Shown piece after piece: positions 1,052 through 63,856 of a stretch of 64,000 nt of DNA. Source of the stretch: an uncultured Gemmatimonadaceae bacterium (GTDB lineage: Bacteria > Gemmatimonadota > Gemmatimonadetes > Gemmatimonadales > Gemmatimonadaceae); assembly GCA_963829055.1 (NCBI GenBank), contig CAWHHI010000008.1:1-64000 (forward strand), written 5' to 3'. How positions within the stretch are numbered: position 1 is the first letter of the stretch; every line of letters starts with the position of its first letter. A model generated the notes under the pieces. That model was given only the letters and a program-made list of their open reading frames with translations, did not search any database and was not told where the DNA came from. A program made the translations under genes and the position numbers.

Positions 1052-1581
1052 CTACGTCCACTTCGACCACAGCACCAGCGCGCCGCACGCGGTGCCCGAC
1101 GCACGGTATCGGTTCGCCGGCAGCCCGGGCGGGTGCTCGGTGTAGTACTCGGATCGCCCCGCGCCAGGTCGGCCCACGTGCGGATCATGCCGCCATCCGC
1201 TTCGCCCAGCCGGAAATCGTTGACTCCTCGGGAACGATCGCGTCCCGACCGAGGACACGGCCGCTCGCTGCGTGCCAGGCGGAAGACCGCACCGGTGGTA
1301 TCACCCACGAACTTGAGCTCCACGTCGCTCGCCTCGTACCCCTGGAGCCTAACGCGGACGCGGTGCGCTCCGACCGCGACTCCGGGAATGCGCGCCTGCC
1401 CGAGCGAGTCGGTGTGGGCGAGCAGCGCGAGCTCAGGTAGCACGATCTCGACTCCCGCGAGCGGCTTACCGCTTTCGGCGTCGGCGACGCCAACCGACAG
1501 CGTCGATCGTCCCGACTGCGCGGCGAGGACGGCCGGAAGCGACGCGAGCACCAGCATCGGAGCAACACCACGAAGGCGCAT
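1052..1581 (-). CDS. Carboxypeptidase-regulatory-like domain protein with a TonB-plug-like C-terminus (frameshifted or truncated)
   Basis: Signal peptide, then VADAESGKPLAGVEI..TDSLG..VRLQGY; the C-terminal EYY..SGTACGALVLWSK lies in another frame. Confidence 0.55.
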
Positions 1582-1785
1582 CGTCAGTACCATTTGGACC
1601 AGGGGAGAAGGACGCCACAGCCATAGGCGTGGGTGCGATGCAGAAAAACCGCGGCGCATTGGTTCGTGACCGGGTTCAGTCGTTTTCTGCGGATGCCTGA
1701 GCGCTCGAGCGTCTGCGTTGCGTAGTGCGGGCGCACGCGAATTGGTTGGCCCGTCCAGCGAATTCCCCAACTGTCGCGCTATGTC

Positions 1786-1818
1786 ACGAGGCCCGCGCCA
1801 GTGGCGCGGGCCTCGTGT
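1786..1818. terminator. Perfect hairpin downstream of the M14 peptidase gene
   Basis: CACGAGGCCCGCGCCA-G-TGGCGCGGGCCTCGTG. Confidence 0.6.
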
Positions 1819-1855
1819 TCATTCACTCGATTGCCTGACCTACTGAGTGTTTGAC

Positions 1856-4800
1856 CTACTGATTGTTCTGCGTCGCCGGTTGTGGCTTCGGCGGCTCCGG
1901 TTTCCCGGCGTCGAGGTCGTTCCAGTTCAGGATCGTATTGAATCCGAGGAAGTACGTGCCCTGCGTCTGCCAACGCCAGAACGGGCGAATGCCGAACATG
2001 ACGATGTGGCCATTGCCGACCTTCGAATCGACGATCTGCGCGCGGTTCGACGAGCGCCTGGCCGCCCGCGAGCGTCCCGGACAACAGCATGTCGTTAGGG
2101 TTTGCCAGGGAACGACATGACGACGCGTGGACGAGCGGCATCGGCGTTCGCGCCGCCCGACACCACCGCGGCCACCCGCGAAATCGCGGAAGCGAGCGGA
2201 GTCACCGCCGGCGCCGCCCGCGCGACCACCGCGAGCGCCACTCGTGGCTGCCGAGTCCTCTTCGAACGGAGAGAGTCGTAGCGGCGTGGCCATAGGAGTC
2301 GTGTTCTGACCGAGCCCGCCGTTGATCCCACCCTCACCACCGCCACCGCCGAATCCACCACCACCTCCGCCACCGCCCACGGCGAGCACCGGCGCCTGGC
2401 TGAAGTACACCGGGAGTTGCGTGCCGTCATAACCGTACGCGATCGGGCTCTTAGCGTCGCTGATGATGCCGCGCAGAATCGACCCGCGCACGAACAAGCC
2501 GCGCGGCTCCTCGACGGTCACGCCAGTCGTTATGCCGTACTCAGGGAAGATCGTCGCCGTCGACCCCTCAGTGAGGAGCGTCCCACCGGCCTGCACGAAC
2601 TTCGCGAGCTCGAGCAGTCCTTCCATCCCCATGCCGCCGCGGATGTCATCCGTCTGATCGAGCGCGCCGAGGTTCGGCGTGGCGGCGGACTTTTTGTAGG
2701 GAATGGCTGCGGCTGTGGTCTTTGGAATGCCGTTCACCTGCGACGTCGCCGACCCGCCGATGTGCGGGAAGATGATGACGTCGTACTTCGCGCGCAGATT
2801 GCCGTCGCGAAGCTTCTGGTCGGAGAAGTAGGTGTACGGCACGCCGTACGTATCCAGTGCGGCGCGCACCCACCCTTCGTCCTGCGTGCGCTGCCAGCTG
2901 TGCACGTAGCCAATCCGCGGGATATCCAGGTCGTGCGTCTTCACACTCGGCGCCGCGGCCACGGCCCAGCCCGAGAGTCCCAGATCTTCGAGCTGCTTGC
3001 CGAGCTTCGCGCGATCGCCACCAGGGATGATGAACGCGCCCGCGCGGAACTTGCGGCCGTTCAACTCGAAGTCCTCTTCGGCCGCCTGCATCTTCACCGC
3101 GGCATTCGCGAAGCGGAACTTCATGAGGTTGTTGTCGGTCGTGTGATCGACGACGATCACGTTGCCCGAGCCTTCGATGCCACCCGGCGCCTTCGCCTCG
3201 GACGTCAGCATCGTCATCGGCTGCGTCTGGATCGACTTGTCGGCGACGGTGACGATCTTGACGTTGCGCATGAGCGGGAACGTCCAGCCGGTGTCGTCGT
3301 ACGGCGCCGGGTTCGCCGGCGAGTAGTTCTGCAGCGAGAAGTACATGTCGGCGAGCGTGCGATACGGCTGATCCGCGCGCACGATGTAGTCGCCCTGCTT
3401 CACGTCCAGCGAGCCGACCTTGAACGGCGCATTCGCGGTGTGAATCTCGAGTCCCTGACGACGCATCTCGTTCACGGCATCGGCGGCGTCCGCCTTCCGG
3501 CGCTGCGTGGCCGGGATCACCCAGGCCGCGATGGGCCCGTCCTTCCCCTTCTGAACGGATCGTTTGTTCTTGAGCCAGTAGTTCTCGAGGTAGAGATCCT
3601 TGTTCTTCGCGACGTGGCTCAGCGCGAACAGCGCGGCGGATTCCTGGATGTTCGTGTTGTTGCGCGGGCCCCACTTGATCGACGCCAGCGGCGGGTTCGG
3701 ACGGAACCACTCCTTGCTCGTCGTCGTCGCGCCCGGCTTGACCTCGTAGTTGTCCGGCCCGTAACTCTGCACCTCGTAGAACCGCCCGATCGCGTTATGC
3801 GAGTGGGCGATGAAGAACATGTAGTTAGGCACCCAGCCGTCGTAGAACCCATACGTCCAGACGCCGGGCACGCCACGCTTCGTCATCTCCATGACGTCGT
3901 TCTGCGCGAGCATCCACCACTCGTCCACGGTGATCGGGTCCAGCGCTTCGTTGTACGGACCCGTGCCGGTGGACGCGTAGAGATACGTCTGCGCCTCGTG
4001 CAGGTCGTGCATGATGGTCGGCGTCCAGTCGTTCTGCACACGCGTGACCGCGCGCGTCAGCTGGAGAAACTGCCCCATGCCATCACGATTGTTGTCGTGC
4101 GCGACGTACTTGCCCCAGTACATGAGCGGCAGGCGAGGAGCGCCCGTCGCCAGCTTCTTGTTGAAGTAGTACGTGTCGACCTGCTTCTCGCGGCCGTCCA
4201 CCTCGATCACCGGCGTGATGAACGTGATGACGTTGTTGCGGATGTTCTGGATGAACGGCGTCTCCTCGACCGCGAGGCGATACGCCATCTCCATCAGCAT
4301 CTCGGGCCCGCCGGTCTCGGGCGAATGCATGCCGCTCGTGAACCAGTAGATCGGCTTCGCCGTCGTCATGATCTGGCGCGCCTGCTCTTCCGATGTCTTA
4401 CGCGGATCGGTGAGCGCGTTGAGCATGCCCTTGTACTTGTCGAGATCGCGAATCGTCGCTTCGTCGGCGACGGCGAGGATGACCATGTCGCGCCCTTCTT
4501 CGGATTTGCCGATGCGCCAGACCTTGATCCGGTCGGAGGCCGCGTCGAGCGCGTCGAAGTAGCGGACGATGTCCTTGGCGTACGTGAGCTCGCCCGGCTG
4601 TCCGACGACACGACCGAGGAACTTGAGCGGCGTCGGGACGGTGCTGGACGCGGGGAGGTGATCCACGAGCTCGGTGGTGATCCGCGGATCCTGGAGATAC
4701 TCCTTGATCTTCTTCGTGTACTCCTCGTCGTTCGGCTGCGCGGCTGGTCTCGCCGCGTTGCCGGCGCTCTGAGCACCTGCCGCGCGGCCAGGGGTCAGCG

Positions 4801-5432: not shown

Positions 5433-7436
5433 CTAGAGTGGTTTCTGACTCACCACGATCGTCGGACTCGGGTTCGCGATCGCTCCGGCGGTCGTCGCCC
5501 CGTTGCCCAGCTGGCCCGTATCGTTTCTCCCCCAGCACCAGACCGTCAATCGATCTTTCGAGATAGCGCAGCTGTGCGACGCGCTGCCGGTCGCGATCCC
5601 GCTCGCCGAGACCTCGGCCGCGAGGATGCTTCCGACGCGGAGCGGAATCGCGCTGCTGTTCCCCGTGGCGCCGAGTTGTCCGGAGCTATTCGAGCCCCAG
5701 CAATACACCCCCTCCGTGCTCGATACACCGCAGGCATGGGTGAATCCCGCGGAGATCGACTGGAAGATGAGGCCGCCCGCCGACGCCACCGGACTCGAGG
5801 AGTCTCCGTTGTTCGCGCCCGCGCCGAACTTGGAGTTGTTGCTCCCCCAGCAATACGCCTGACCGATCGTCGTCAGTGCGCAGGCGTACTGCCCACCGAG
5901 CGACACGCTCTGGAACGTCAGCCCGCCAACCACCTTGCTCGGCGTCCCGTTGAACGTGTTGCCGTACGAGATCGTCTTGCCGTCACCGAGCTGCCCGATG
6001 CTGTTGGCGCCCCAGCAGTAGGTGTCGCCGCCAGTCGTTAGGCCGCAGGTGTAGGACTGCCCCGCGGTGATCTTCGCGAACGAGAGGTTCGCCGCGACCA
6101 GCACCGGCGTCGACGTCGGCGCGGTACCAGCACCGAGCTGACGCCAATCGTTGTTGCCCCAACAATACGCGCGGTTGTCCGTGGCGACGCCGCAGCTGTG
6201 ATCGGAGCCGGCGGTCACCGAGCGGAACGTCAGATTCCCCGCGACTGCAACCGGCGTCGGGCTCTGCGACGCGTTGGAGCCGTTGCCGAGCATGCCCCAG
6301 CCGTTGTATCCCCAGCAGTAGGCCTTCCCGTCGAGCGACACGCCGCACGTGTGACGACCATAGGTCGAGAGCTGCGCGAAACGAATGTCTCCAGGAACTC
6401 GCACCGGCACGTTGCTCATGGCATCAGCGGACATCTGTGTGCTGCCGAGGCGCCCTTCGTTGCCGTTGAGGCCCCAGCACCACGCGATGCCGCCGCTCGC
6501 GATGTCGCAGGCATGCATGGAGCCCGCGGTCATCGAGCGATACTTGATCACGACGACGCGCGTCGCCGTCGCGCTCTTCCCTTCGCTCGTGGCGGTGACC
6601 GTGACGGTGCCGCGATCGACGCCTGTGAGCATGCCCTGCAGCGGATCGATCGCCGCGACGGCTGCGTTCGAGACCGTCCATCGCACTTCGCGACCGGTGA
6701 GGACGTTGCCGTCCGCGTCACGCAGCGCAACGCCGATCAACTCCGAGCTGAACGCCTCGAGCGTGTCGAGCGCTGGAGCGATGACAATGGCTGCGACCGG
6801 CTTCACCGCGGCCGACACCGTCACGGCCGTCGTGCCACTCTTGCCTTCGCTCGTCGCGGTGAGCGTAGCCGTGCCGGCAGCCACGCCAGTGACGACGCCC
6901 GTCGCGGCATCGATCGTCGCAATCGCCGGAGCACTCGAGCTCCATGCGATCGCTCGGCCCGCGAGCACGTTGCCTTGCTCGTCCTTCGCCGTCGCCGCGA
7001 GCGCGACGGTGGCGCCGACCTTGACCGCGGGCGCGTTAGGCGTGACGGTCACCGTCGCTACCGGTACCGCCGCCACGGTGACCGCAGCCTGCGCGGACTT
7101 CCCTTCGCTCGTCGCCGTGATGGTCGCGGTGCCGGCGGCGACGCCTGTCACGAGCCCGTTGGCATCGACCGTCGCGACGATGGCCGACGACGTCGTCCAC
7201 GCGACCGCTCGCCCCGTGAGCACCGTGCCGCCGACGTCCTTCGTTGTCGCCGTGAGCTGCGCGGTGCGCCCGATGGAGACGCTCGCGGCGGCCGGTGTGA
7301 GCACGACCGAGGCAACGGGCGCCGGGCCGCCACCCTCACCATTGTCGGGCGAGGACGGCGTGTCACTGTCGCCGCTACACGCGGCGAGCACGAGTGCGAA
7401 ACAGGCCGCGGTTGCGGCGGTGAAGAGACGAGCCAT
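5433..7436 (-). CDS. Lipoprotein with three Big_2 Ig-like domains and RCC1 repeats
   Basis: LAAC lipobox; three TITATSEGKS-type repeats; repeated AYCWG.N..GQLG. Confidence 0.9.
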   Translation of the reverse strand: MARLFTAATAACFALVLAACSGDSDTPSSPDNGEGGGPAPVASVVLTPAAASVSIGRTAQLTATTKDVGGTVLTGRAVAWTTSSAIVATVDANGLVTGVAAGTATITATSEGKSAQAAVTVAAVPVATVTVTPNAPAVKVGATVALAATAKDEQGNVLAGRAIAWSSSAPAIATIDAATGVVTGVAAGTATLTATSEGKSGTTAVTVSAAVKPVAAIVIAPALDTLEAFSSELIGVALRDADGNVLTGREVRWTVSNAAVAAIDPLQGMLTGVDRGTVTVTATSEGKSATATRVVVIKYRSMTAGSMHACDIASGGIAWCWGLNGNEGRLGSTQMSADAMSNVPVRVPGDIRFAQLSTYGRHTCGVSLDGKAYCWGYNGWGMLGNGSNASQSPTPVAVAGNLTFRSVTAGSDHSCGVATDNRAYCWGNNDWRQLGAGTAPTSTPVLVAANLSFAKITAGQSYTCGLTTGGDTYCWGANSIGQLGDGKTISYGNTFNGTPSKVVGGLTFQSVSLGGQYACALTTIGQAYCWGSNNSKFGAGANNGDSSSPVASAGGLIFQSISAGFTHACGVSSTEGVYCWGSNSSGQLGATGNSSAIPLRVGSILAAEVSASGIATGSASHSCAISKDRLTVWCWGRNDTGQLGNGATTAGAIANPSPTIVVSQKPL

Positions 7437-7699: not shown

Positions 7700-8264
7700 A
7701 TGCCGGCCTTGAACCTGGCCTTCTGGCGCAAGTGGCACCGTTGGATCGGCTTTCCCGCCGTGCTGTTTCTCCTCTGGGCCGCGACCACGGGCTTCCTCGT
7801 GGCGTTCACGGAATTCTTCGGCGAAGAGGAAGCGCTCCGCGAAGCGACACGGGACATGATCAGCCCCGTGACGCTCGCGTCACCGGCTACCGCAGTGGTC
7901 GGACCCGATCGCGCGCGCGTTCACGACGGCGGCGACGCGCGCGAATGGCGCGCCGGTGGACAAGATCGAGATGCAACTCAAGGGACCGAAGCCGACGGTC
8001 ACGATCTTTACCGGCAAGCCGACCGGCGGTGAGGACCGGAAGTTCGTGTTCGACGGCCGAACCGGTGCGCTGCTCTCGGAGGAAGCGTACGCCGACAAAC
8101 CGTTCCTCTATCGCCTGCACAGTGGCGAGGCGTTCGGCGACGGCGGCCTGGTGGTCGCGATGCTGTGGGGCCTCACGCTGATCGTCCTGACGCTGACAGG
8201 ACTGATCATCTACCTCAAGCTGCGGCGGCCGGGCCTAACGGGAATACGGAAAGTCTTCTGGTAG
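7700..8264 (+). CDS. PepSY-associated TM helix protein (frameshift near 7895)
   Basis: WRKWHRWIG N-terminus; LYRLHSGE..LTGLIIY C-terminus in a second frame. Confidence 0.75.
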
Positions 8265-8531: not shown

Positions 8532-9234
8532 TTATTTGAATCCTGCTCCGCCCTTCCGGTCATCCACCACGAACTTGTCACGCGCCGGCATGCGCACCGC
8601 CGGCAACGTGCTGCTGTTCATCACCGCCGTCGGCTCGATCACCTCGTTCTTCGCCAACAGGAACGCGACGACCGCGTAGACCTCGTTGTTCGTGAGCGAA
8701 CCCGGCGCCGTGATCGGCATCGTGCGGCGAACGTAGTCGAACACCGTCGTCGCATAGGGCCAGTAATTGCCGACCGTCTTCACGAGCTTGGGATCCTGAC
8801 CGAACGGAAATCCCTCCCGCGGATCGCGACCCACGAGCTTGGGCGCGGGCGGAGAACCCGCCAGTGGTGCGCCTACCTGCCCCTCGCCCGGCAGGGCCGT
8901 GACACGCAGCGCACTTGGCCGCGAACACCGCGGCGCCCTGGGCCACCGTGCCACTGCCCGCCGGCAATCCCTTACCGTCCGGACCGACGTCGACATCCCA
9001 GGCGGCAACCTCAGAGTCCGTCGCGGGACGCCCAACGCCGAATCGCGCCGGCGGGTCAGGAGCCGCCTGCACGTCCGCCGGCAGCCGCCCCGTGCCTAAC
9101 GTGCGCTGGCGTCGCCCGGCGCGTTCGGCCAACGGACCTCGGTCACACGCGACGAACGCGAGCGCGATGAGGCCCACTCCCGCGAGTGCTCGCGTCCGGG
9201 CGCTGCGGCCCGTGTTCGTCCTGATGCGACTCAT
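8532..9234 (-). CDS. soxD: SoxD-like cytochrome c (frameshift near 8880)
   Basis: WDVDVGPDGKGLPAGSGT, CAACHG, KTVGNYWPYATTVFDYVRRTMP. Confidence 0.75.
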
Positions 9235-9273: not shown

Positions 9274-10651
9274 TCATTCGTCCACCCGAAACGCCACTTG
9301 CCCGGCGGAATCCACATCCCACGCGCGGATGTAGTTGAAGTGGTAATCCGTGCCCGCACCGCGCTTGCCGCGAAACTCGGCCAACGTCGGCTGGGTGTAC
9401 CCAGTGTCGTCGACGGCACGGCTCATCAGCACCGTCGGACGACCATCCCACTGCCACGGGATGCGGAAACGCGTGTGCGCGAGAGCCTGCACCGGCTCCT
9501 GCAGTTCGGCGACCGTCCAGCTGTTACCGCCGTCCACGCTCACGTCGACGCGCACGATCTTGCCACGCCCGCTCCACGCAATGCCCGTGATCTGCGTCCA
9601 CTTGTTGGGCGTCACGCGTCCCGGATACGCCGGCGACGTGATGATCGACTTCGCGTCGAGCACGAAGCTGAACTGCCGAGCGGTCCCGTTCGCGAGCGGG
9701 TCGGTGTACTTGGACGTCTCGTCGCGGAACATGCCGGGGCCGTCGGACACCTCGATGCGCCGCACCCACTTGATGTTCGCGTTGCCCTCGTAGCCCGGCA
9801 ACAGGAGCCGCGCCGGATAGCCGTTCGATGGACGCAACGGCTCACCGTTGTAGGCGTACGCGATCAGCGCGTCGTCCATTCCCTTCTCCATTGGCACGCT
9901 GCGCGATAGCCGCGCGGCGTCACCGCCCTCGGCACGAAACCACGCGGCACCGCGCTGCACGCCGACCTCTCGAAAGAGCGTCGCCAGAAGCACGCCGGTC
10001 CATTCGCCGGAGCTCGTTAGGCCGTCGATCGCCTGGGGCGTCATCTCGCGCTTCGGCGTACGGTACGCACCGCGTCCGTTCCCCGAGCACTCCAGGAATA
10101 CCGTTCGCGACACGCTCGGAAGATGATGCAGATCGTCCAGCGAGAAGACGGTCGGTCGATCCACCAGACCGTGAATCATCAGCTCGTATCGCGCTGGGTC
10201 GATCAGCGCGACCCCCGCGTGGTGCCGCTCGAACACGAGGTCACTCGGCGTCACCGTTCCGGAGAGCTGCTGCAGCGGTGTGAGCGACGACCCGGTCACC
10301 AGGCCGACCGGGGTGCGCGCCGGGGTCTCGAACGGCGATCGCGCGCCTAACGCCGACGTCGGCGGGCCGGGAGCCCGCGTCGGATCCGGCGGCACCGAGG
10401 CGAGGTCGTACACCGGAGCGCCGGGAGGCGCTCCGGCCGGTCGGCGGTGGACTCGTCGGAGCACCCTGTGGTGCGGGCGCCTGCGCTGGCAACCGCGCGA
10501 GCACAACCCCGCCCGCGGACGCGGCAGCCGCCGCGATGAGTCCGCGACGCGTCAGGCGCGCGGATCTCGGGTCGATCGGATTGCGCGCTTCGAGCGCGTC
10601 ACCCGCCGCGCTCGGGGTCATCGAGGGTCCTTCGTCCTGCTCGTCTGCCAT
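9274..10651 (-). CDS. soxC: SoxC-like sulfite/sulfane dehydrogenase molybdoprotein (Tat signal; frameshift near 10450)
   Basis: LTRRGLI Tat motif; FERHHAG, FLECSGN, NGEPLRPSNGYPARL, GIAWSGRG. Confidence 0.8.
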
Positions 10652-10887: not shown

Positions 10888-11884
10888 TCAGTTCCACGGC
10901 AAGGCGCTGCGCTCGCGCCAGTACTCGGTCGAGCCCATCGCCATGGCACGCAGCGCGTCGACCGTGTCATCCGGAACCTCGATGGACGACGCTGCGAGGT
11001 TGGATTCCAGCTGAGTTGTAGTCGTGGCGCCACTCAAGACAACGTCCGCCCACGGCTGCGCGAGTGCGCACGCGAGCGCCAACGCGTCGATGCTGACCGC
11101 GAGCCGTTCTGCTTCTCGCGCGAGTGTGCGAGTATGCGACCGACGCAGCGTCAACGGTCGCACGACCAGTCAGCCGCCCGTTCGCGAGTGCCTCCTTGAC
11201 GATCACGCCCAGCCCGGCGGCATGCGCGGCACTCAACGCATCCTCGGCCGCGCGCTCGAGCAGATTCCACGTGGCCTGCACGGTGTCGAACACGCGATCA
11301 CCGCTGCGGTGGATATCGAGCGCCCGTAGAATCGTGTTCGACTGGCCCTCACCGCTCACCGTGAGCCCGATGCGAAGGCCGGCAGCGCGAGCGTCAGCCA
11401 GCGCGTCGATGAGCGAGTCGTTGGCGAGCACGCCACTCTCGATGGTGGCCGAGTGGATCTGGTAGAGCGCGAGGTGCTTGCCGAGCATCGCGCGCGACTC
11501 GGCGAGCTGGCGGGTGAAGACCGGGAGCGAGTGCTCCTTGATCTCGTGCGTGGGTGCGTCGACACGCCAGTCAGCCGTGTAGGTGTATCCCCACTTCGAG
11601 CCAACCGTCACCGCCAGTGGCGGAATCGTTCGCGATGCGAGCCACGACGCGAGGAACTGCTCGGCAAGGCCGTACGATCGCGCGACGTCGAAGTAGCGCA
11701 CGCCGCGCGCGTACGCGCAGTCGAGCACCAGATGCGCGCGACGCTCCATCGCGTCCTGCCCGCGATCGGACCCGAGATCCTCGCCGTGCCCGACGTTGAT
11801 GTAGCCCGGTCGTCCGAGCGCCGCGAGCCCGAGCCCGATCGGCGACACGGAGAGTCCGGAGGCACCTAACGATTTCAGTAGCAC
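10888..11884 (-). CDS. Aldo/keto reductase (frameshift near 11140)
   Basis: IGLGLAALGRPGY, YFDVARSYG, SKWG, LYQIHS, VVLSGA. Confidence 0.85.
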
Positions 11885-12040: not shown

Positions 12041-12976
12041 TTAGATAATCCGCTGGCCGAACGCGCTGAGCACGAGCCCCACCGCGAGCTCCGCCGTGCG
12101 GTTCTGCGCGTCGAGCACCGGGTTCACCTCCACCACGTCCAGTGACGTTAGGCGACCGCTGTCCGCGACGATCTCCATCGCGAGATGCCCCTCGCGGTAC
12201 GTGGCGCCACCAGCGACCGGCGTTCCCACCCCCGGGGCGTGTACAGGATCCAGCCAGTCGAGATCCATGGACACATGTACGCCGCCCGTATCTCGACCGA
12301 CGATCGCGAGCGCGTCCTGCATGACCGCGCGGAGTCCGCGCTCATCGATCGCTCGCATTGTGAACGTCGCGACACCCCAATCGCGCAGGTGACGACGCTC
12401 CGGCTCGTCGAGGTCGCGCACGCCGACGACTGCGACGTTCGCCGGGAGGACCGCGGGCGATGGTCCGCCGAGCGCCGCGGAAATTCCCGCGAACATTGGG
12501 TCGCCGTGGCCGAGCAGGTGCGCGAGCGGCATGCCGTGGACGTTTCCACTCACCGAAGTCTGCGGGGTGTTTGCATCCCCGTGCGCATCGAGCCAGATGA
12601 CGCCGACGCGCTCCCCACGCTGCGCGAGCGCGACGGCCGCACCGGCAATCGAGCCCGCGGCAATCGAGTGATCACCACCGACCGTCACCGGGACGGCTCC
12701 GGCGACGATGGCATCCGCGGTCACGCGCGCGAGCTCCATGCACGTCGCCGTGATGGCCGGGAGAAACGCGCCCACCGGTCCAGGAAGCTCCGTCGGCCGA
12801 TGGAGCAGCACCTCGGGTAACGGCGCCGAGACATCGTCATCCGCTTCGACCGTGTGGCCTAACGCCTCGAGGCGGCGCGCCAGGTCCGCGACCCTGAGCG
12901 CGGACGGGCCCATGTCCACTCCTCGACGGCTAGCCCCGAGATCCATGGGTACGCCGGTGATCCGAATGCGGGTCAG
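12041..12976 (-). CDS. rocF: Arginase
   Basis: GVPMDLGASRRGVDMGP, GGDHS, DAHGD, GNVHGMP, SMDLD, EVNP; GGAGG RBS is followed by CTG, so the start codon is uncertain. Confidence 0.9.
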   Translation of the reverse strand: MTRIRITGVPMDLGASRRGVDMGPSALRVADLARRLEALGHTVEADDDVSAPLPEVLLHRPTELPGPVGAFLPAITATCMELARVTADAIVAGAVPVTVGGDHSIAAGSIAGAAVALAQRGERVGVIWLDAHGDANTPQTSVSGNVHGMPLAHLLGHGDPMFAGISAALGGPSPAVLPANVAVVGVRDLDEPERRHLRDWGVATFTMRAIDERGLRAVMQDALAIVGRDTGGVHVSMDLDWLDPVHAPGVGTPVAGGATYREGHLAMEIVADSGRLTSLDVVEVNPVLDAQNRTAELAVGLVLSAFGQRII

Positions 12977-19139: not shown

Positions 19140-19145
19140 GCGCCC

Positions 19146-27338: not shown

Positions 27339-27445
27339 GCCCTACTCCTCCACACCGCCGCGCACAACGCGGGTACAGCGTGAGCATGGTCGCGACGGAG
27401 CGCCGCGGCCGGCCAGCCTAACGCGGATGCCGAACCCGGAGTCCG

Positions 27446-29755: not shown

Positions 29756-29841
29756 GCGAGGAAGCCTCACCGCTCGAGGATCCAGAACATCCTCGACCGA
29801 TCGATGGGACTCCCGCAGTAGACACAGCTCGCGAGTTCGTC

Positions 29842-32839: not shown

Positions 32840-32906
32840 CAATTCTCGCAGGAGACACGCCTACGAGGCGCGAATCGAGTACCTAACGCCCGCTCCTGAC
32901 GCGCGC

Positions 32907-38520: not shown

Positions 38521-38617
38521 CAAACGGCAAGCGGCGTTGGCACCGCCTCGCAATCGAATGGTTGGTAGCGCCTAACGGCGGTACGGCAATGGGAACGTGC
38601 GGCCATATCTTGGCGGC

Positions 38618-51737: not shown

Positions 51738-51816
51738 GCAGCCGCACGCAGCGTCACCCAGCATACCAGCACGACCGACCCAGCCACCAGCCGCAGTTCC
51801 CCGTTCCCGGTTCCCG

Positions 51817-54552: not shown

Positions 54553-54787
54553 GAGTGTGCGGAGCGAAGGGTGTGGGTCACCCTGGAAAGCTAATCGCGA
54601 CGTTCGGCGTCATCGCCGAGCCGTCGAGGATGCTCGGCCATTCGATTCCGACGGAAGCCGCGGCCGCCGTCCCAATGTTCGGAACGCCGGTGACCCGTTA
54701 GGCGCGGATGATCCGCCGCTCTGGTTGTAGCCTGGCGTGTTCGTTCCATGGCGGGCCAATCCCGGATCGTGTCAGCACGGCGCGTCG

Positions 54788-56794: not shown

Positions 56795-56800
56795 GCGCGC

Positions 56801-58299
56801 CTAACGATACGTCTCGAAGAACCCCGCCCCCTCCCCTACGATCGGCGCCCCGCCCGCTCGGCCACTCAGGCGCGCCGTCCCCTTCATCTGAATGAAGTAC
56901 GGCCGCGCGAGAGCCCGCGCCGTCATCGTCTCTCCGCGTTCGGCCTGCGGCTGGCGCGTATCGGTCGCCACCGCGTCCTCGATCGTCAGCTCGACGCGCA
57001 GCGTGTCGTTGCCACGCACATCCGCGAACACCGCGCGAGACGGCACGCGCAGCAGCGCCCCACCAGTCACTCGAAGGGTGCGGCCGTCCGTGTAGTCGAC
57101 GCGCTTCGGGCGAAACAGCGTGCGGAAGCCTAACGAATCGACGAGATAGAAGAACAGCGGGACCTCACCCATCACGCTGTCGGGCTGCTGGACGCGGCCG
57201 TAAAGGAACGTGTAGGAGCCAGCGCGCGCCGCGCCCCACTCCCACGTGACCCCACGCCAGACTCCCCAGTTGTGATCGTGATAGGCCTGCGCGCCGTCGT
57301 AGTGCTCGCAGCGGTCGCTGACACAGATCGTGCCGGTCGCGGCGGCACGTAGTCCGGCCACGGCGTACCCCGACACGAACGTTCCGGTGCCGAGCGAGGC
57401 GCCAGGAAAGTAGGCACCTGGTGCGGGCGTGACCGTGAGATCGACGCTCGCGGGGCCGGCACCGCCATCGCCCTGCGCGAGCGCGTGGACGAGATAGCGC
57501 CCCGTGGAATCCACCGTGACCGTTCCCGTGCCGACGCGCAGATCGGCCTTCGACGTGGAGAACGCGATGGCGCTCGACGGGAAATGCGGCGGTGAAGCGG
57601 CGCGCTGGCTTCCCCTCCTCGTGCAGCGTGAGCAGCACCTGACCTCCCCACTCGCCGTCCGGTACGGCGCCGCCAACGATGAACGAGAGGAATGCCCACC
57701 GCTTCCGATCGCTGGAGAGCACGTTGAAGTAGTGCCACTCCGCCCAACTATCGCGATTCTCGAGATCCCGCGCCGGAAGGTGGAAGTGGTCGATGTCCGC
57801 GCGCAGTTCGGCGGTCGTCGGGCGCGCGCCACCGGCGGTCGAAGTCATCATCATCCCACTGGCCGCCGCCTAACGGCGGCACCGCGCCGACGATCGACGA
57901 CTGCGACGGCAGCTCGCCGGTCGCACGCACAGGCCGCTCAGTGCCGTCCGCCGTGCGCAGATAGATCACCTTGTCCACGATCTGCGGAGCGACGGCACGC
58001 ATCTGCGACGCGTTCCGCGGGCTGGACAGCAGTTGCAGGTCGAGGAAGCGCGCGTTGCTGATCGAGAAGAACAGTCCACCGACGCCCCCGGTCTTCATGA
58101 CCTCGACGTCGATACCCTCCGGAAGCACCGTGACGTCGCCGCCGCCAACGAGACGTTCGTCGCGCGCCTGCGTGAGCAGTGCCTCGCCGATCGCGAGCAG
58201 GACGATCATCACGCCGACGCCCAGCCCGAACCCGCCGAGCAGGAGCGCCGATCGCCACGGGCGCAGTGTGAGGTTGCGACGAGCGAGGATGCCGATCAT
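56801..58299 (-). CDS. MacB-type N-terminus joined to an AttH/CrtC-like lipocalin domain (two frameshifts)
   Basis: ILARRNL..RSALLL; WAEWHYFN, AYHDHNWG, WEWG, GAGFFE. Confidence 0.7.
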
Positions 58300-59006: not shown

Positions 59007-60192
59007 CCGACGGCCTCCTCGCGTAACGTGGCCGAGATCGGAAGCGATGCCGCGCGCCACGATGGGTAAATGCCCGCGATGATCCCCGACGCGACCAGCA
59101 GACCTAACGCGCGGAACGCGGCACTCGGCTGGAACAGAAAGAAGTCGATCGCGTCCGGCAGCCCCGGGAACCCACGCAGAATCGAGTTCAGATATCGCGC
59201 CGTCACGATCCCGAGCAGCAGACCCGCGACCGCTCCCGTCAGGCTGAGCGCGACGCCCTCGATGGTGATCTGCTGCACGATGTGCCAGCGCGAAACGCCA
59301 ATGGCACGCATGACCGCGATCTCCCCGACGCGTTCGTTCACACTGACGGTGATGATGGTGGAGACGAGTAGAAACCCGACGATCAGGCTCACCGCGCCGA
59401 GGATGAACGCGAGCTGACGGAAGTAGCTGAGCCGACGCTCCGCCTCCGCGATCGCGCCGGCCGTCGACAACGCGGTGACCCGAGGCAGCGCGCGCTCGAT
59501 AGCGGCGCGTGCGACTTCCGGGTCCACGTTAGGTGCCGTGCGCACCATGAACAGCGACACGCGATCCGCTCGTTGCCCGCCGACCATTGCCTGAACGGTT
59601 GCGAGACGCAGGGCCACGGCTCGATCCTCGGCGCTGAGATAGGTGAAACGCGCGCGTCCGGAGATCACGAGCCGCTGCCTCCCCTGATACGTGCGCAGCT
59701 GCGGGTCGAACCCGACGGCGATGTCCAGCGTGTCGCCAACGTGCGCCCTTGGCAGCACGAAGGAAGGCGTCGCTGACGACGATCGTGTTCGGCGCGGTCG
59801 GCTCCGCGCCTTCGAGAAGCTGGTAGTCGCCCTGGACCGCCGGATCGATTCCGAGCGCGAATGCCGTGACCGGCTCACCCCTGCCTAACACGTGAATCGT
59901 CGCGCCGAGTACTGGCGCAACCGCTGTGACGCCCGCGACGCGCTGGATGGCCGCGGTCGCCTCGGCTCGCCTGCCCGATCGTCGCCTCGCTGTCGAACGG
60001 GAGCGTTCCGCGTGGCGACACGCGGATGGTGAACCCGTTGCTCCCGAGCAGGCTCGCGAACGACTGGCGCATTCCCGTCGCCAGCATCACCATGTCGAGC
60101 AGCATCGCCGCGGAGACAGCGACGCCGAGCGTCGCGAGCAACGTGCGGCTGACGTGACGTCGGAGAGTGCGGCCCGCGAGCTGAAATCGCAT
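59003..60192 (-). CDS. FtsX/MacB-like ABC permease (frameshifted)
   Basis: RTLLATLGVA; ERVGEIAVMRAIG; YPSWRAASL. Confidence 0.8.
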
Positions 60193-61173: not shown

Positions 61174-61593
61174 TCACGGATGCCGCACGGGGTGTCGAAC
61201 CCACGACGCGGTGTCCTTGAGCGACTCGCGCGACGCGGCCAGCGTCGATGCCGGCTTCGCCACCGTGGACAGCCCGCGCCGAAGCGCGATGAACCCGCCG
61301 ACGAGCTCCACCACGCCGACGATCAATGCGCCCGCCCAGTAGTTGTGATTGAGCGCAGCGGACACCAGCGCCACCAGCAGCACCGTGAGCGCGACCGCCG
61401 CCACTATGCCGAACGCGAGCGCGAGCGCGAGTTGAATCGACCCGCGTACTCCGGTGCGCACGCTCTGGTGCAGCTCGAGCTTCGCGAGTCGAACCTCATC
61501 ACCGGCAAGACGCTTGGAGTCATCCGCCAAGCGACGAATGAGATCCGGAATCCCCGTATCGGGGTCGATCTGGATAGATGGTCGTGCAGTCAC
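61174..61593 (-). CDS. Holin-X/DUF1469-like membrane protein
   Basis: LIRRLADD..EVRLAKLEL, two TM helices, ESLKD. Confidence 0.75.
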   Translation of the reverse strand: MTARPSIQIDPDTGIPDLIRRLADDSKRLAGDEVRLAKLELHQSVRTGVRGSIQLALALAFGIVAAVALTVLLVALVSAALNHNYWAGALIVGVVELVGGFIALRRGLSTVAKPASTLAASRESLKDTASWVRHPVRHP

Positions 61594-61732
61594 CGTGGCC
61601 TCCGCAAAACGACGCGACGCAGTTCAGACACGGTGCTTAGGGCAAAGAGCATTCCTCTGCGCACGATTGGCTTGCTGCGTCGGGTACCAGGGTGCGAGCT
61701 TAGCCGCACCTTCAACCCACGAGCGCCATCGC

Positions 61733-63169
61733 ATGGCCGTACCCGCCGTCGTCGAAGAGCCGACCGTACCCGCGAAGGGCCGCGGCCGTCTCCTGCAGGT
61801 GCTCGGCGTCGCGTTCGGTGTCGCCGTCATCATCGGCAATACGATCGGGTCTGGAATCCTGCGCACTCCGGGCACAGTCGCCGGACTTCTGCCGAGCCGG
61901 CACGCGTTCCTGCTCGCGTGGGTGGCCGGCGGAGTGTACGCACTCCTCGGCGTCGTGTCGCTCGCGGAGTTGGGGGTAGCTGGTCCCGCGGTCGGGCGGG
62001 CAGTACGTGTTCGCGCCGACGCGCCTTCGGGCCGTACGCCGGCTTCATCATCGGCTGGAGTGACTGGGTCTCCTCCGTGGCGTCGTTCGCCGCTGCGGCA
62101 ATTGTGATCGGCGAATACAGCGGCGCGTTGTTCCCGTCGATCACTCGCTATTCGCTCGCGGTTGCGATGGCTGTAGTGGTGGTCTTCACGCTGTTGCAGT
62201 ACGGAGGGCGTCCGGCGCGGTGACCAGATCCAGCAGGCGACCACGCTCCTCAAGGCGTTGGGCTTCGTGGGGCTCATCGTCGCGTGTTTTGTCTTTTCGC
62301 CGGTGAATGCGGCGCCGGCGCCCACCGCGATCGCGACCGCCACAGGGGGCATCGGCATCGCCGCTGTCGTGCTCGCCATGCAGGCGGTGATCTTCACGTT
62401 CGATGGCTGGAACGGGATGCTCTACTTCTCCGAGGAGGTACGCGATCCCGGCCGGCAGATTCCTCGCGCAATGTTCACCGGCGTCCTCGCCATCATCGCG
62501 ATCTACGTCCTCGTGAACGCCGCGTTCGTCCACGTGTTAGGCATGAGCGGGCTGGCGGGGAACGAGTTCGCGGCCGGGGCGGCGGCGCAGGCGCTCTTCG
62601 GCAGCCGCGGAGACACCATCATCCGGGTCCTCATCATCGTCGGACTGTTCAGTGGCGTGAACGCCTACATCCTGTTCTGCGCGCGCATCCCGTACGCGAT
62701 GAGCCGGGACGGCCTGTTTCCGAAATGGGGAATGACCGTGAACGCGGGCGGGACGCCGACCAACACGCTGCTGCTGTCGGGCGCTCTCGCGATCGGCTTC
62801 CTGGTCACGGGCACGTTCAACTCCGTGATCGCCGTCGCCGCGTTCTTTTTCGTGCTCAACTACGTGGCGTCGTTCGCGTCCGTCTTCGTCTTCCGCCGGA
62901 CGATGCCCGACGCGCCACGCCCATATCGCGCCTGGGGCTACCCTTGGACGACGGGATTCTCACTGCTTGGCGGCATCGCGTTTCTCGTCGGCGCCGTCGT
63001 GAGCGACCGGAGGAACTCGCTCATCGCGATCGGGCTGCTCGTCGTCAGCTATCCGGTGTTCGCGATGACGACGCCGACGCAAGGGCGATTAGCCGGTCAG
63101 CGGAGCTGCGCCGAGCGCCGGCTACGAGCTGCAAGGACCTCGACGAAGATCTTCGCCGCCAGCGCGTAG
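61733..63169 (+). CDS. APC-family amino acid permease (frameshifted; 3' end uncertain)
   Basis: IGNTIGSGI, FDGWN, EEVRDP, RIPYAMSRDG, RPYRAWGYP. Confidence 0.85.
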
Positions 63170-63856
63170 CCGATCTGATGCTGCGTCGGACCGACGCGAA
63201 CGGTGAGCGGCCCGTCGAACGGAGCCCGCGCGCCGAGCGTGACCATGACGCCAGGGCGGATGCCTAACGAATCGAGGTAGCGGAGCAGCTCGTCATTCTC
63301 ATCCGCCACACGCATCACACACGCTCGCCCACCCGTCGGGACGTCCGCGAGCAACGCGTGGCGCGTTTCATCGATGATGCCGTCGCGCGTCGGGATCGGC
63401 GCCCCATGCGGGTCGGTGAGCGGCTCGCCGATCGCGGCGGCCATGCGATCGATGAGCTCGTCCGACGCCGCATGCTCGAGTCGCTCCGCCTCGGGATGCA
63501 CCTGATCCCACGGGTAGCCGAGCGCCTTCACGAGATACGCCTCGATGACGCGATGGCGGCGAATCGTCCTGAGCGCCGCGCGGCGACCGGCATCGGTGAG
63601 ACGCACGCCGCGATACCGCTCGTACGCCAACAGCCCCTGCTCCGCCAGTCGGCGCACCATCCCGGTCACGGACGCGGGCGCGATCTGTAACCGATGCGCG
63701 ATGTCGTTCGTCGCGGCCGCGCTCTCGCTCAGCTCGATGTCGTAGATCGCCTTGAGGTAGTCCTCGACGGGCCCCGTGAGATCCACGAGGCGCGCCTCGA
63801 CCGGCGCGGCCGCCTTGGCTGCGCGAACACGCCGCGATGAACGCTCGCCCGTCATG
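63097..63856 (-). CDS. DtxR/MntR-family metal-dependent regulator with a FeoA domain
   Basis: VEDYLKAIY, RRHRVIE, EAERLEH, DPHGAPIP. Confidence 0.9.

What the first reader, a model, noticed from the sequence alone, without database searches (positions are those of the whole stretch)
1348..63269. Highly iterated non-palindromic motif RCCTAACG/CGTTAGGY written into genes across the window
Seen: by manual scan, 31 CCTAACG (e.g. 1348, 8234, 9095, 10346, 11865, 12858, 15214, 18247, 20203, 21081, 21421, 25258, 37731, 42759, 48431, 57129, 63263) and 18 CGTTAGG (e.g. 2093, 6036, 7034, 10015, 12146, 16192, 17162, 19575, 24362, 26127, 27748, 52837, 59527), plus a few CCTAACA variants. That is about one per 1.3 kb. 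A base-composition estimate at ~69% GC gives about 7, and TA-containing words are normally depleted further. 47 of 49 extend to RCCTAACG. Most lie inside ORFs, in different frames, and force codons that are rare at this GC (TTA-GGC, CTA-ACG, GTT-AGG, CCT-AAC), so the pressure acts on the DNA rather than the protein. Both strands carry it, and it also pervades the NRPS/PKS cluster. Established analogues are DNA uptake sequences (Pasteurellaceae, Neisseria), cyanobacterial HIP1 and Chi/KOPS. It also matches the integron core GTTRRRY. Inference: a lineage-specific uptake, methylation-drive, recombination or nucleoid-protein signal; I know of no description for this lineage.
Basis: partly seen in the sequence, partly recalled or inferred. 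Interest (0 to 1): 0.85.

Follow-up and report, generated by a model that had tools for sequence, protein, structure and literature searches.

The report
Hyper-abundant genome word matching integron core
A soil bacterium of the Gemmatimonadaceae has the eight-letter DNA word GCCTAACG written about once per gene through its whole genome, much like the "self tags" by which Neisseria and Haemophilus recognise their own DNA, and the word is spelled like the recombination core of integron gene cassettes.

Summary
CCTAACG occurs 49 times in the window (31 +, 18 -) against 2.9 expected, and 47 of 49 read RCCTAACG. The genome (7.8 Mb Gemmatimonadaceae MAG) holds 6391 copies. Coding sequence holds 4171 against 215-360 after synonymous-codon shuffling.

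The signal acts on the DNA. All four stop-free frames are used, and 306 of 4321 genes take their stop codon from the word. There is no strand skew. Copies avoid each other within 200 bp. Between species, 56% of sites are conserved against a 19.5% baseline.

The excess fills one large clade of Gemmatimonadaceae, with losses, and is nearly absent from the rest of the phylum.

No reader was found. DNA methyltransferases, competence genes and integron integrase occur equally in word-rich and word-poor genomes.

The word equals the R'' box of this order's integron attC sites.

Best reading: a DNA-uptake-type self-tag spread by molecular drive (confidence 0.4). I found no published description. The scan noted the same word earlier in two other genomes.

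The parts
1348..1354 (+). word copy CCTAACG
2093..2099 (-). word copy (C before it, one of 2 non-R)
6036..6042 (-). word copy
7034..7040 (-). word copy
8234..8240 (+). word copy
9095..9101 (+). word copy
10015..10021 (-). word copy
10346..10352 (+). word copy
11865..11871 (+). word copy
12146..12152 (-). word copy
12858..12864 (+). word copy
15214..15220 (+). word copy
16192..16198 (-). word copy inside NRPS/PKS stretch
17162..17168 (-). word copy inside NRPS/PKS stretch
17528..17534 (-). word copy inside NRPS/PKS stretch
18247..18253 (+). word copy inside NRPS/PKS stretch
19575..19581 (-). word copy inside NRPS/PKS stretch
20203..20209 (+). word copy inside NRPS/PKS stretch
21081..21087 (+). 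word copy inside NRPS/PKS stretch
21421..21427 (+). word copy inside NRPS/PKS stretch
24362..24368 (-). word copy inside NRPS/PKS stretch
25258..25264 (+). word copy inside NRPS/PKS stretch
25436..25442 (-). word copy inside NRPS/PKS stretch
25758..25764 (+). word copy inside NRPS/PKS stretch
26127..26133 (-). word copy inside NRPS/PKS stretch
27417..27423 (+). word copy inside NRPS/PKS stretch
27748..27754 (-). word copy inside NRPS/PKS stretch
28706..28712 (-). word copy
29750..29756 (-). word copy
32882..32888 (+). word copy
37579..37585 (+). word copy (C before it, one of 2 non-R); first of a run of 12 + copies, a run length expected about 3 times by chance among 6391 sites
37731..37737 (+). 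word copy
38116..38122 (+). word copy
38571..38577 (+). word copy, intergenic
40224..40230 (+). word copy
42145..42151 (+). word copy
42759..42765 (+). word copy
42852..42858 (+). word copy
44955..44961 (+). word copy
45435..45441 (+). word copy
48431..48437 (+). word copy
52837..52843 (-). word copy
54696..54702 (-). word copy
56800..56806 (+). word copy
57129..57135 (+). word copy
57869..57875 (+). word copy
59103..59109 (+). word copy
59527..59533 (-). word copy
63263..63269 (+). word copy

Best explanation
GCCTAACG is a lineage-specific 'self word' of one large clade of Gemmatimonadaceae, kept at about one copy per 1.2 kb by a process that acts on the DNA itself. I think the most likely mechanism is a DNA-uptake-sequence-type molecular drive. 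In that model a component of the transformation machinery, or an early step after uptake, prefers fragments that carry the word. Word-bearing alleles then enter and recombine more often than word-free alleles. The word therefore spreads to every position that protein coding tolerates, until mutational decay and purifying selection balance the gain. One copy per fragment is enough, which would explain why copies avoid each other within 200 bp. SHOWN: the extreme excess that is independent of coding; the use of every permitted frame and of stop codons; strand symmetry; the spacing repulsion; conservation with turnover at orthologous sites; restriction to one clade; absence from foreign DNA.
For: EXCESS. 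The genome holds 6391 CCTAACG and 5004 GCCTAACG. It is the top-ranked 7-mer under order-1 and order-2 Markov models (18x and 26x). The 8-mer is 87x over an order-2 model trained with the word masked. Coding sequence holds 4171 copies against a mean of 360 (10 within-gene synonymous shuffles) or 215 (5 resamplings from word-free codon usage).

DNA LEVEL. All 4 stop-free frames are used (1214, 784, 1611, 538 copies) and sense/antisense is 1998/2149. 1616 of 2875 TTA codons lie in the word. 178 of 558 TAA stops and 128 of 1128 TAG stops are supplied by the word. Density is 1.7-2.0 per kb around stop codons against about 0.7 per kb inside genes.

NO POLARITY. Correlation of word skew with GC skew is -0.10 over 155 bins, and orientation runs look random. 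The two replichore arms of contig C16 hold 159+/201- and 248+/246-.

SPACING. Gaps of 8-50, 50-100 and 100-200 bp occur at 0.28, 0.34 and 0.55 of the exponential expectation. 39 control 7-mers of similar count give 0.75-1.42.

EVOLUTION. 112 of 200 sites are conserved in two congeneric species at 76.6% DNA identity, against 19.5% for all 7-mers (rank 2 of 2049). Against another rich genus only 6 of 19 G000 sites and 6 of 66 G014 sites are shared. Against six poor genomes 0 of 112 are shared. The word therefore accumulates independently in each lineage.

FOREIGN DNA. Foreign-looking segments of 31-50 kb carry no copy.

UPTAKE TOOLKIT. ComEC is present in 31 of 31 genomes, a secretin in 29 of 29, a ComEA-like protein in 28 of 29 and DprA in 35 of 36.

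PRECEDENT. The only other unskewed hyper-abundant short words I know of are USS, DUS and HIP1. All three are now tied to transformation (USS and DUS recalled; HIP1 from the abstract of PMC13756078, and the listing of bioRxiv 10.1101/2024.09.10.611283).
Against: No experiment shows competence in this phylum. Two searches found no paper that mentions both Gemmatimonadota and uptake sequences or competence. The uptake genes are just as present in word-poor genomes, so they do not explain who has the word. No receptor candidate was identified. One-mismatch variants inside the core are at or below expectation (0.4-1.0x), except GCATAACG (11.5x) and GCCTGACG (2.2x); as I recall, one-off USS are enriched in Haemophilus. 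There is no excess of close inverted pairs of the terminator type seen in Neisseria: 13 convergent, 15 divergent and 53 direct pairs within 60 bp. The exact identity with the integron attC R'' box points towards a recombinase-linked story that the uptake model does not predict. No lineage 'dialects' were found: six poor genomes have no hyper-abundant k-mer of their own, and two candidate dialect words failed.
Confidence: 0.4

Rival explanations
1. Integron-linked word. The reader is the integron integrase IntI or another tyrosine recombinase that recognises the attC R box. The genome-wide copies would be secondary recombination cores, or footprints of recombinase activity, scattered at about one per gene.
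For: The word is the canonical R'' (inverse core) box; the consensus RYYYAAC/GTTRRRY and the example GCCTAAC come from passages of PMC12901181. In the word-poor relative G021, 27 of the 29 GCCTAAC sites printed from contig C95 open an approximately 100-bp attC and carry the eighth base G; the other 2 are secondary matches inside two of those attC sites or an unrelated site. G000 has an intI at C20:208041-208958 (265.7 bits against a cut-off of 265) beside a sparse run of attC-like sites at C20:103-207 kb. In these sites both R'' and R' read as the word. IntI scores over the cut-off in 26 of 36 Gemmatimonadaceae genomes.
Against: IntI is not co-distributed with the word: it is over the cut-off in 12 of 18 rich and 14 of 18 poor genomes. 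The genome-wide copies carry no attC anatomy. There is no information outside the 8 bases. ICS-then-CS pairs at 40-160 bp number 84, against 79-94 for the other three orientations. The variant profile does not follow RYYYAAC: GCTTAACG is at 1.0x, GTCTAACG at 0.7x and GCCCAACG at 0.6x, while the non-consensus GCATAACG is at 11.5x. No known IntI reaction leaves a bare core without a cassette (recalled knowledge of the mechanism).
Confidence: 0.15
2. Methylation-linked word of the HIP1 type. The core CCTAAC would be the target of the family's conserved, roughly 1070-aa Eco57I/MmeI-type adenine methyltransferase. Methylation-dependent repair, or methylation-dependent transformation, would then favour the word. 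This can coexist with the uptake model.
For: This methyltransferase is the only DNA methyltransferase found in G000 that all rich lineages share. Searches of G000 for PF02384, PF01555 and PF00145 found none, there was one PF07669 hit, and the D12 enzyme is lacking in six rich genera. It lies 11 kb beyond the window, is syntenic in G001, and is paired with an SNF2 helicase. Asymmetric 6-base sites with the target A next to last are typical of this enzyme family (recalled, not tested). HIP1 boosts transformation in a methylation-dependent way (abstract of PMC13756078).
Against: The enzyme is present in 24 of 26 genomes, rich and poor alike. Identity along its length follows phylogeny, not word status. 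In full-length alignments of 10 rich and 10 poor enzymes, only 3 columns have disjoint residue sets and none is conserved among the rich. Poor genomes with the enzyme have no hyper-abundant word of their own. No Vsr was found. Methylation itself could not be tested, because all 24 runs listed are held only as contigs.
Confidence: 0.15
3. Selected functional site without drive: a Chi-like recombination signal for two-ended breaks, or an array of binding sites for a nucleoid-associated protein, kept by selection at about one per kb.
For: The density is of the same order as recalled Chi densities. Sites are conserved. The even spacing with short-range repulsion would suit a signal needed once per stretch.
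Against: There is no orientation bias relative to replication, although gene-strand bias is strong and a clear skew switch lies on contig C16. The 26-87x excess far exceeds the few-fold excess recalled for Chi. Selection on 6000 individually weak sites is hard to sustain. Most copies are not shared between two rich genera, which fits turnover under a drive better than site-specific function.
Confidence: 0.1
4. Artefact of basecalling or assembly in a long-read MAG.
For: G000 does carry many single-base indel errors. Genes are split across frames, and contigs from 3-4 independent runs share single-base gaps against it (table 4).
Against: The same word is hyper-abundant in all 6 other species of the genus, each in 260-1170 contigs (read type not told), and in well over a hundred further genomes of the family. 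The window stretch is held in contigs of at least 17 studies. None of the 40 base differences listed from four laid runs falls in the 10 word copies of that stretch; 170 further differences were not shown.
Confidence: 0.01

Closest known systems
DNA uptake sequences: USS of Pasteurellaceae and DUS of Neisseriaceae
   Same: A short non-palindromic word at about one per kb. It is found in all frames and in intergenic DNA, with both strands equal. It is restricted to a clade, positionally conserved between species and absent from foreign DNA, and denser where constraint is low: 1.07 per kb in unaligned against 0.66 per kb in aligned DNA.
   Different: Uptake preference is untested and no receptor is known. 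This is a different phylum with no reported competence. The word is 8 bases with no extended flanks. No halo of one-mismatch variants. No terminator-type inverted pairs. No dialects. The word coincides with the integron core.
HIP1 (GCGATCGC) of cyanobacteria
   Same: An octamer, 15- to 300-fold over-represented (start of the abstract of PMC5861425, seen in the listing). It is evolutionarily conserved with a quasi-even distribution, and absent from some lineages of the phylum (abstract of PMC13756078).
   Different: HIP1 is a palindrome covered by two cognate methyltransferases. Here the word is asymmetric and no methyltransferase tracks it. The type IV secretion link reported for HIP1 does not apply: VirB4 was found in 2 of 36 genomes.
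Integron attC R''/R' (inverse core / core) boxes
   Same: Letter-for-letter identity with GCCTAAC/GTTAGGC. In this order's real attC sites the eighth base G is also present.
   Different: The roughly 6400 genomic copies stand alone, without L boxes, a partner box or cassette structure. They sit inside ordinary conserved genes. Word abundance does not follow intI.
Chi and KOPS/AIMS polar motifs
   Same: Over-represented octamers tied to DNA transactions.
   Different: Those motifs are skewed towards one replication strand. This word is not.

Membership tests
DNA uptake sequence (USS/DUS) | Genome-wide hyper-abundance far above composition and codon expectation | tested here: met
   6391 copies. 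18-26x over order-1 and order-2 Markov models. Coding sequence 4171 against 215-360 after shuffling.
DNA uptake sequence (USS/DUS) | No strand or replication polarity; all reading frames and intergenic DNA used | tested here: met
   r = -0.10 with GC skew. 4 of 4 stop-free frames used. Stop codons are supplied by the word.
DNA uptake sequence (USS/DUS) | Competent cells take up word-bearing DNA preferentially | not testable with these tools
   Needs an uptake or transformation assay in a word-rich isolate.
DNA uptake sequence (USS/DUS) | Transformation machinery encoded | tested here: met
   ComEC 31/31, secretin 29/29, ComEA-like 28/29, DprA 35/36. These are equally present in word-poor genomes, so the feature does not discriminate.
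DNA uptake sequence (USS/DUS) | A specific receptor (ComP-type minor pilin in Neisseria; recalled) | not tested
   No candidate was identified. Pilins were not surveyed.
DNA uptake sequence (USS/DUS) | Close inverted pairs acting as terminators (Neisseria; recalled) | tested here: not met
   13 convergent, 15 divergent and 53 direct pairs within 60 bp. All short spacings are depleted.
HIP1-type methylation-linked word | Cognate DNA methyltransferase(s) co-distributed with the word | tested here: not met
   The Eco57I-type enzyme is in 24/26 genomes, rich and poor. The D12 enzyme is absent from 6 rich genera. No discriminating columns were found.
HIP1-type methylation-linked word | The word is methylated in vivo | not testable with these tools
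   All runs are kept only as contigs.
HIP1-type methylation-linked word | Palindromic octamer | tested here: not met
   GCCTAACG is not its own reverse complement (sequence).
Chi / KOPS polar motifs | Orientation skewed with the direction of replication | tested here: not met
Integron attC site | R'' RYYYAAC and R' GTTRRRY boxes | tested here: met
   The word contains GCCTAAC and its complement contains GTTAGGC. Consensus taken from PMC12901181.
Integron attC site | Paired R''-L''...L'-R' imperfect palindrome of about 55-140 bp at cassette ends, in same-strand arrays near intI | tested here: not met
   Not met by the genome-wide and window copies. Met only by some 15-20 sites of G000, mostly at C20:103-207 kb, and by the G021 array.
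REP / MITE-type dispersed repeat | Conserved sequence or palindrome beyond the core, mostly intergenic | tested here: not met
   Information content is about 0 outside positions -1 to +7, and most copies are in genes.

The most novel reading that the evidence does not exclude
The word is the integron recombination core that has escaped the integron. In one clade of Gemmatimonadaceae a reader of the attC R box now acts genome-wide: either the uptake receptor tuned to the most repeated sequence of the ancestral cassette arrays, or a recombinase. Chromosomal genes and gene cassettes would then carry the same 'passport' at about one per gene. That would couple natural transformation to cassette capture, and might offer a route by which ordinary genes become cassettes.
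Probability: 0.12. Interest if true: 0.9.

Novelty: new variant of a known kind. Interest (0 to 1): 0.72.

Why it matters
If the word is an uptake or recombination self-tag, it would be the first outside Proteobacteria and Cyanobacteria. It would be indirect evidence that an abundant, barely cultured soil phylum exchanges DNA by sequence-selective transformation.

It gives a sharp natural experiment.

It is also a practical marker. Word-free stretches flag foreign or chimeric DNA in MAGs of this clade, and the word could raise transformation efficiency when genetic tools are built.

The identity with the integron attC core links two fields that have not been connected, uptake sequences and cassette recombination. 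It bears on the open question of where attC sites and cassettes come from.

Tried and rejected
LINEAGE DIALECTS. In 80 loci of other Gemmatimonadaceae, several dispersed AT-containing 8-mers looked locally enriched. The two I tested genome-wide, TTGCCGAT and CCGTTGAT, are ordinary: 78-456 copies in each of 5 genomes, in all of them alike. Samples of six word-poor genomes show no hyper-abundant k-mer.

MAXIMAL-ORDER MARKOV RANKING. It hides the word, because its sub-words carry the signal. Low-order and masked models were used instead.

FIRST GENE CALLER. A GC3 threshold covered only about 53% of the genome. It was replaced by a codon-likelihood caller covering 76%. This is still crude and undercalls, so the 'intergenic' counts are upper bounds.

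SAME-STRAND ARRAYS IN POOR GENOMES. I first read these as repeated protein domains. They are integron cassette arrays.

CANDIDATE READERS. I found no link to the word for: the Eco57I-type methyltransferase; the D12 methyltransferase; Vsr, C5, N6_Mtase and N6_N4 families, none of which were found in G000; ComEC, secretin, ComEA and DprA; VirB4; IntI. A Tex-like HHH_3 protein is absent from the 6 rich and present in 6 of 8 poor g56 genomes, but it is present in other rich genera, so this reflects phylogeny only.

STRICT ATTC SCAN. The structural scan found only 3 palindromes, each counted on both strands, and missed the real sites. A fuzzy match to G000's own attC left end worked better.

RPOB TREE. 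3 of 22 rows (G039, G011, G051) sat on a branch of about 10 changes per site. My script had evidently picked a neighbouring long ORF, so they are unusable. The printed group statistics still include them as 'poor'.

METHYLATION FROM READS. Not possible, because only contigs are held. Laying four runs gave no information on methylation.

RUNS OF ONE ORIENTATION. The window has a run of 12 + copies, and 11 - copies lie beside intI. Runs of that length are expected about 3 times among 6391 sites, and the runs tests are unremarkable.


Full report
OBSERVATION. The window is G000:C8:1-64000 of a 7,784,024-base, 20-contig genome. It has 64-71% G+C in 4-kb windows. 100 dinucleotide-preserving shuffles give a mean of 2.87 and a maximum of 10. 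The preceding base is G in 38 sites, A in 9 and C in 2, so 47 of 49 read RCCTAACG. Four CCTAACA variants are present. 15 copies lie in the NRPS/PKS stretch 15239-28159.

WHOLE GENOME. The genome holds 6391 copies of the 7-mer, counting both strands, and 5004 of GCCTAACG. Expected counts are 353 (order-1 Markov), 249 (order 2) and 720 (order 3). It is the top-ranked 7-mer of the genome under orders 1 and 2, and second (behind its own overlap GCCTAAC) under order 3. With the core masked for training, the 8-mer is expected 58 times, an 87-fold excess. That expectation, about 7 per Mb, equals what word-poor relatives actually carry, for example 28 in 3.8 Mb in G008. Poor genomes are therefore at baseline and are not avoiding the word.

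A SIGNAL ON DNA, NOT PROTEIN. I used a crude codon-likelihood gene caller covering 76% of the genome.
- Copies fall in all four frames that contain no stop: P-N-x 1214, x-L-T 784, x-L-G on the antisense strand 1611, x-V-R on the antisense strand 538.
- Sense/antisense is 1998/2149, and 2244 copies are intergenic or at gene edges.
- Coding sequence holds 4171 copies. Ten within-gene synonymous shuffles give a mean of 360 (range 330-392). Five resamplings from word-free codon usage give a mean of 215.
- 1616 of the 2875 TTA codons in called genes lie in the word.
- The two frames that do contain a stop are used exactly where a stop is allowed. 178 of 558 TAA stops lie in CCTAACG and 128 of 1128 TAG stops lie in CGTTAGG, together 306 of 4321 confident genes.
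- Density is 1.96 per kb in the last 50 bases of genes and 1.70 per kb in the next 50, against about 0.7 per kb inside genes.
- In samples of two sister species the word is denser in DNA that does not align to G000 (1.07 per kb) than in aligned DNA (0.66 per kb).
The word sits wherever constraint permits.

ANATOMY. Information is confined to 8 positions. At -1 the base is G 78%, A 13%, C 7%, T 2%. At +7 there is a weak preference for C or A. Beyond that only codon periodicity is visible, so this is not part of a longer repeat. Within the core, single-base variants are at 0.4-1.0 of expectation, except GCATAACG (11.5x) and GCCTGACG (2.2x). End variants are enriched: ACCTAACG 30x, CCCTAACG 16x and GCCTAACA 26x.

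ORIENTATION AND SPACING. The excess of + over - copies does not follow GC skew (r = -0.10) or gene strand (r = -0.04) over 155 bins of 50 kb, although gene strand and GC skew correlate with each other at 0.50. Runs tests per contig give z from -2.75 to +1.1. On contig C16, where both skews switch near 550 kb, the arms hold 159+/201- and 248+/246-. This excludes a Chi/KOPS-type polar signal.

Copies repel each other. Gaps under 20 bp occur at 0.19 of the exponential expectation, 20-50 bp at 0.29, 50-100 bp at 0.34 and 100-200 bp at 0.55. Gaps of 400-1600 bp occur at 1.25. 39 control 7-mers of similar abundance give 0.75-1.42 in the short bins. The only low outlier of the 40 drawn was GCCTAAC itself. 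A purely local mutation or repair bias would not produce this repulsion. A process that needs one copy per stretch of DNA would.

WHO HAS IT. Record titles name the relatives as Gemmatimonadaceae MAGs. All 7 genomes of the genus carry 2501-5112 copies of the 8-mer.

Among 401 genomes of 77 genera of the family, every sampled genome of the following genera carries about 150-1300 copies per Mb (my arithmetic on rounded genome sizes): g1 (7 of 7), g9 (7 of 7), g62 (12 of 12), g69 (13 of 13), g80 (5 of 5), g76 (7 of 7), g84 (9 of 9) and g35 (3 of 3). The maximum is G210, with 7821 copies in 6.1 Mb. Most other genera are at baseline. Genus g56 is split: 6 genomes hold 3244-4141 copies and 8 genomes hold 4-66.

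In a phylum sample of 251 genomes, 198 lie outside this family. Of those, only the 5 genomes of genus g110 exceed 150 copies (181-1061), and the other 193 hold at most 91. G030, of a third family, holds 345.

An RpoB tree (19 usable rows, 3 rows with a mis-picked ORF) puts 10 rich genera in one group (SH-aLRT 91). It places rich g56 and g48 with poor g4 (support 100), and rich g62 and g55 with poor g37 and g3. This needs at least 3 changes of state, and 0 of 500 label shuffles do as well. I read this as one old gain with several losses, though two or three gains are not excluded. The tree is unrooted and rests on a single gene.

Several counted genomes are flagged unpublished (G013, G031, G056, G057, G155, G269, G287, G314, G458, G485, G554). 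They enter the tallies. No conclusion rests on them alone.

DYNAMICS. I aligned 278 kb of G001 and G005 to G000 at 76.6% identity. 112 of 200 G000 copies are intact at the orthologous place, against 19.5% for all 7-mers. That is rank 2 of the 2049 7-mers with 40 or more occurrences. The 88 non-conserved sites differ at 1, 2, 3 or 4-6 positions in 18, 30, 29 and 11 cases. They mostly read as ordinary GC-rich synonyms such as CCTGACG, CCGAGCG and CCGAACG. Sites are therefore either perfect or unrelated, with few intermediates. Against G014, a different rich genus with 129 copies of the 7-mer in a 76-kb sample, only 6 of 19 G000 copies and 6 of 66 G014 copies coincide. Against six poor genomes, 0 of 112 coincide. 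The word is therefore maintained, but it also turns over and accumulates independently in each lineage. The process is ongoing and is not an inherited relic.

FOREIGN DNA LACKS IT. Seven gaps of 12 kb or more exist where 0.3 are expected. The largest are C6:5440-55038, C11:1-44055 and C6:591808-623330. The first carries second copies of FtsK, chorismate synthase, DAHP synthase, leucyl aminopeptidase and TrpB. These are only 47-56% identical to the copies elsewhere in the genome. This segment is foreign or chimeric DNA, in a MAG with 3.95% estimated contamination.

NOT AN ARTEFACT. G000 does have many single-base indel errors. Genes are split across frames, and contigs of 3-4 independent runs share single-base gaps against it. 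The word, however, is present in the fragmented assemblies of other species. The stretch 37001-46000 is held in contigs of at least 17 studies. None of the 40 listed base differences from four laid runs touches its 10 copies; 170 further differences were not shown.

SEARCH FOR A READER.
- Methyltransferases. G000 gave no match to the N6_Mtase, N6_N4_Mtase, C5 or Vsr families (the genome is 86% complete). It has one Eco57I/MmeI-type enzyme at C8:~73.5-77 kb, frame-broken by assembly errors, about 1070 aa in relatives. PADLOC's best match is type IIG RE-MTase, and DrmMI also matches. It sits next to an SNF2 helicase. G000 also has one D12-class enzyme.
- The Eco57I-type enzyme is in 24 of 26 genomes, rich and poor alike. 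Its identity profile follows phylogeny. In 10 rich against 10 poor full-length sequences, only 3 columns have disjoint residue sets, and none is conserved among the rich.
- The D12 enzyme is absent from six rich genera and present in poor ones.
- Uptake genes. ComEC (31/31), a secretin (29/29), a ComEA-like protein (28/29) and DprA (35/36) are universal.
- VirB4 is nearly absent, in 2 of 36 genomes.
None of these explains who has the word.

THE INTEGRON LINK. Two earlier notes of this scan, on other Gemmatimonadaceae genomes, reported the same word. One pointed to the integron core, and I tested that. The attC consensus is R'' 5'-RYYYAAC-3' and R' 5'-GTTRRRY-3', with GCCTAAC as a real R'' (passages of PMC12901181).

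In the word-poor relative G021 most copies of the word lie in same-strand arrays. On contig C95, 27 of the 29 GCCTAAC sites printed open an approximately 100-bp attC. These have the form GCCTAACGG..GCGC.TAAGCTGCGGCGC ... GCGCCG.CAGCTTCA.GCGC.TGTTAGGC and are spaced about 500-2500 bp apart. Strand-lopsided counts in other poor genomes (62/6, 20/71, 1/21) fit such arrays, but I did not inspect those genomes.

G000 has an intI at C20:208041-208958 (265.7 bits against a cut-off of 265). Beside it lie some 15-20 attC-like sites, mostly on C20:103-207 kb and all in one orientation. In these sites both R'' (GCCTAACGC) and R' (ACGTTAGG) read as the word. So the hyper-abundant word is the R box of this order's own integrons, including the eighth base.

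The link stops there, for three reasons. IntI scores over the cut-off in 12 of 18 rich and 14 of 18 poor genomes. The genomic copies have no attC anatomy. The variant profile does not follow RYYYAAC.

MECHANISM. The features that are shown are: an extreme excess independent of coding, strand symmetry, one copy per stretch with repulsion, conservation with turnover, accumulation in every lineage of a clade, and absence from foreign DNA. These are the signature of a molecular drive working through recombination of preferentially acquired DNA, as modelled for USS (recalled). HIP1, the only other such octamer, has recently been tied to transformation (abstract of PMC13756078; listing of bioRxiv 10.1101/2024.09.10.611283).

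I therefore put an uptake-type self-tag first, at 0.4. Rivals are a recombinase-linked role of the integron core (0.15), a methylation-linked HIP1-like system using the conserved type IIG-like enzyme (0.15, not exclusive of the first), and a selected Chi-like or nucleoid site (0.1). About 0.2 remains for something not on this list.

NOVELTY AND LIMITS. The word is not in print as a motif: one unrelated hit. No paper in the library joins Gemmatimonadota with uptake sequences or competence, or describes its integrons' relation to a genome word. The library lacks most subscription journals.

Papers seen: PMC13756078 (outline and abstract); PMC12901181 (three passages). For PMC5861425, PMC4390886, PMC1939737 and the 2024 bioRxiv preprint I saw search listings with abstract starts only. 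Statements about ComP, one-off USS, Neisseria terminators, Chi excess and enzyme-family site shapes are recalled, not tested.

My gene calls are crude. The relatives are MAGs. The co-distribution tests cover 26-36 genomes that are not phylogenetically independent. The scan found this same word before on other DNA, so this window is a further instance. It adds the family- and phylum-wide map, the spacing and stop-codon results, the orthologous-site dynamics, the negative candidate tests and the direct check of the attC identity.

Noticed in passing
window 15239-28159: Hybrid NRPS/PKS cluster on the - strand with condensation, adenylation, PCP, KS, AT, KR and thioesterase domains. The genes are split across frames (KS N- and C-halves in separate ORFs; an adenylation domain split between two ORFs), most likely by assembly indels.
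   Followed up: partly
window 37120, 39151, 39219, 39234, 39245, 41499, 41562, 45645: Contigs from 3-4 independent public runs all lack one base (two at 39219) relative to the window. The G000 assembly carries many single-base insertion errors, which explains its split genes and its 86% completeness despite only 20 contigs.
   Followed up: partly
window 38441-38489, 39152-39218, 40820-40888, 51749-51818: Short intergenic GCAGC/GCTGC-rich elements match dozens of places in sister genomes at 76-88% identity. They show 5- to 15-fold higher summed contig depth than their surroundings. This looks like a dispersed REP-like repeat family unrelated to the word.
   Followed up: no
G000:C8:73500-78500 (about 10-14 kb beyond the window end): A roughly 1070-aa Eco57I/MmeI-type (type IIG-like / DrmMI-like) methyltransferase sits next to an SNF2 helicase. 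The methyltransferase is conserved in 24 of 26 Gemmatimonadaceae genomes and is syntenic in G001. That is unusually stable for something that looks like a defence module.
   Followed up: partly
G000:C6:5440-55038; G000:C11:1-44055; G000:C6:591808-623330: Word-free stretches of 31-50 kb. The first holds duplicate housekeeping genes (FtsK, chorismate synthase, DAHP synthase, TrpB, leucyl aminopeptidase) at 47-56% identity to the other copies, plus a D5_N primase-like gene. It is either a chimeric join or a large foreign insert. The word could serve as a chimera detector for this clade.
   Followed up: partly
G000:C20:103000-209000; L224-L225 (G021:C95:1-24000): Chromosomal integrons are common in Gemmatimonadaceae: IntI scores over the NCBIfam cut-off in 26 of 36 genomes. 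G000 has a sparse array about 100 kb long. G021 has at least 27 cassettes in 24 kb with highly uniform attC sites.
   Followed up: partly
G000:C16, near 550 kb: GC skew and gene-strand bias switch sign together, and gene-strand bias reaches 0.9. This looks like a replication origin or terminus, with unusually strong co-orientation for a GC-rich genome.
   Followed up: no
window 45691-48693: A 1001-aa TPR + CHAT (caspase-like) protein. Nearby at 5436-7436 lies an RCC1-repeat / Big_2 surface-type protein.
   Followed up: no
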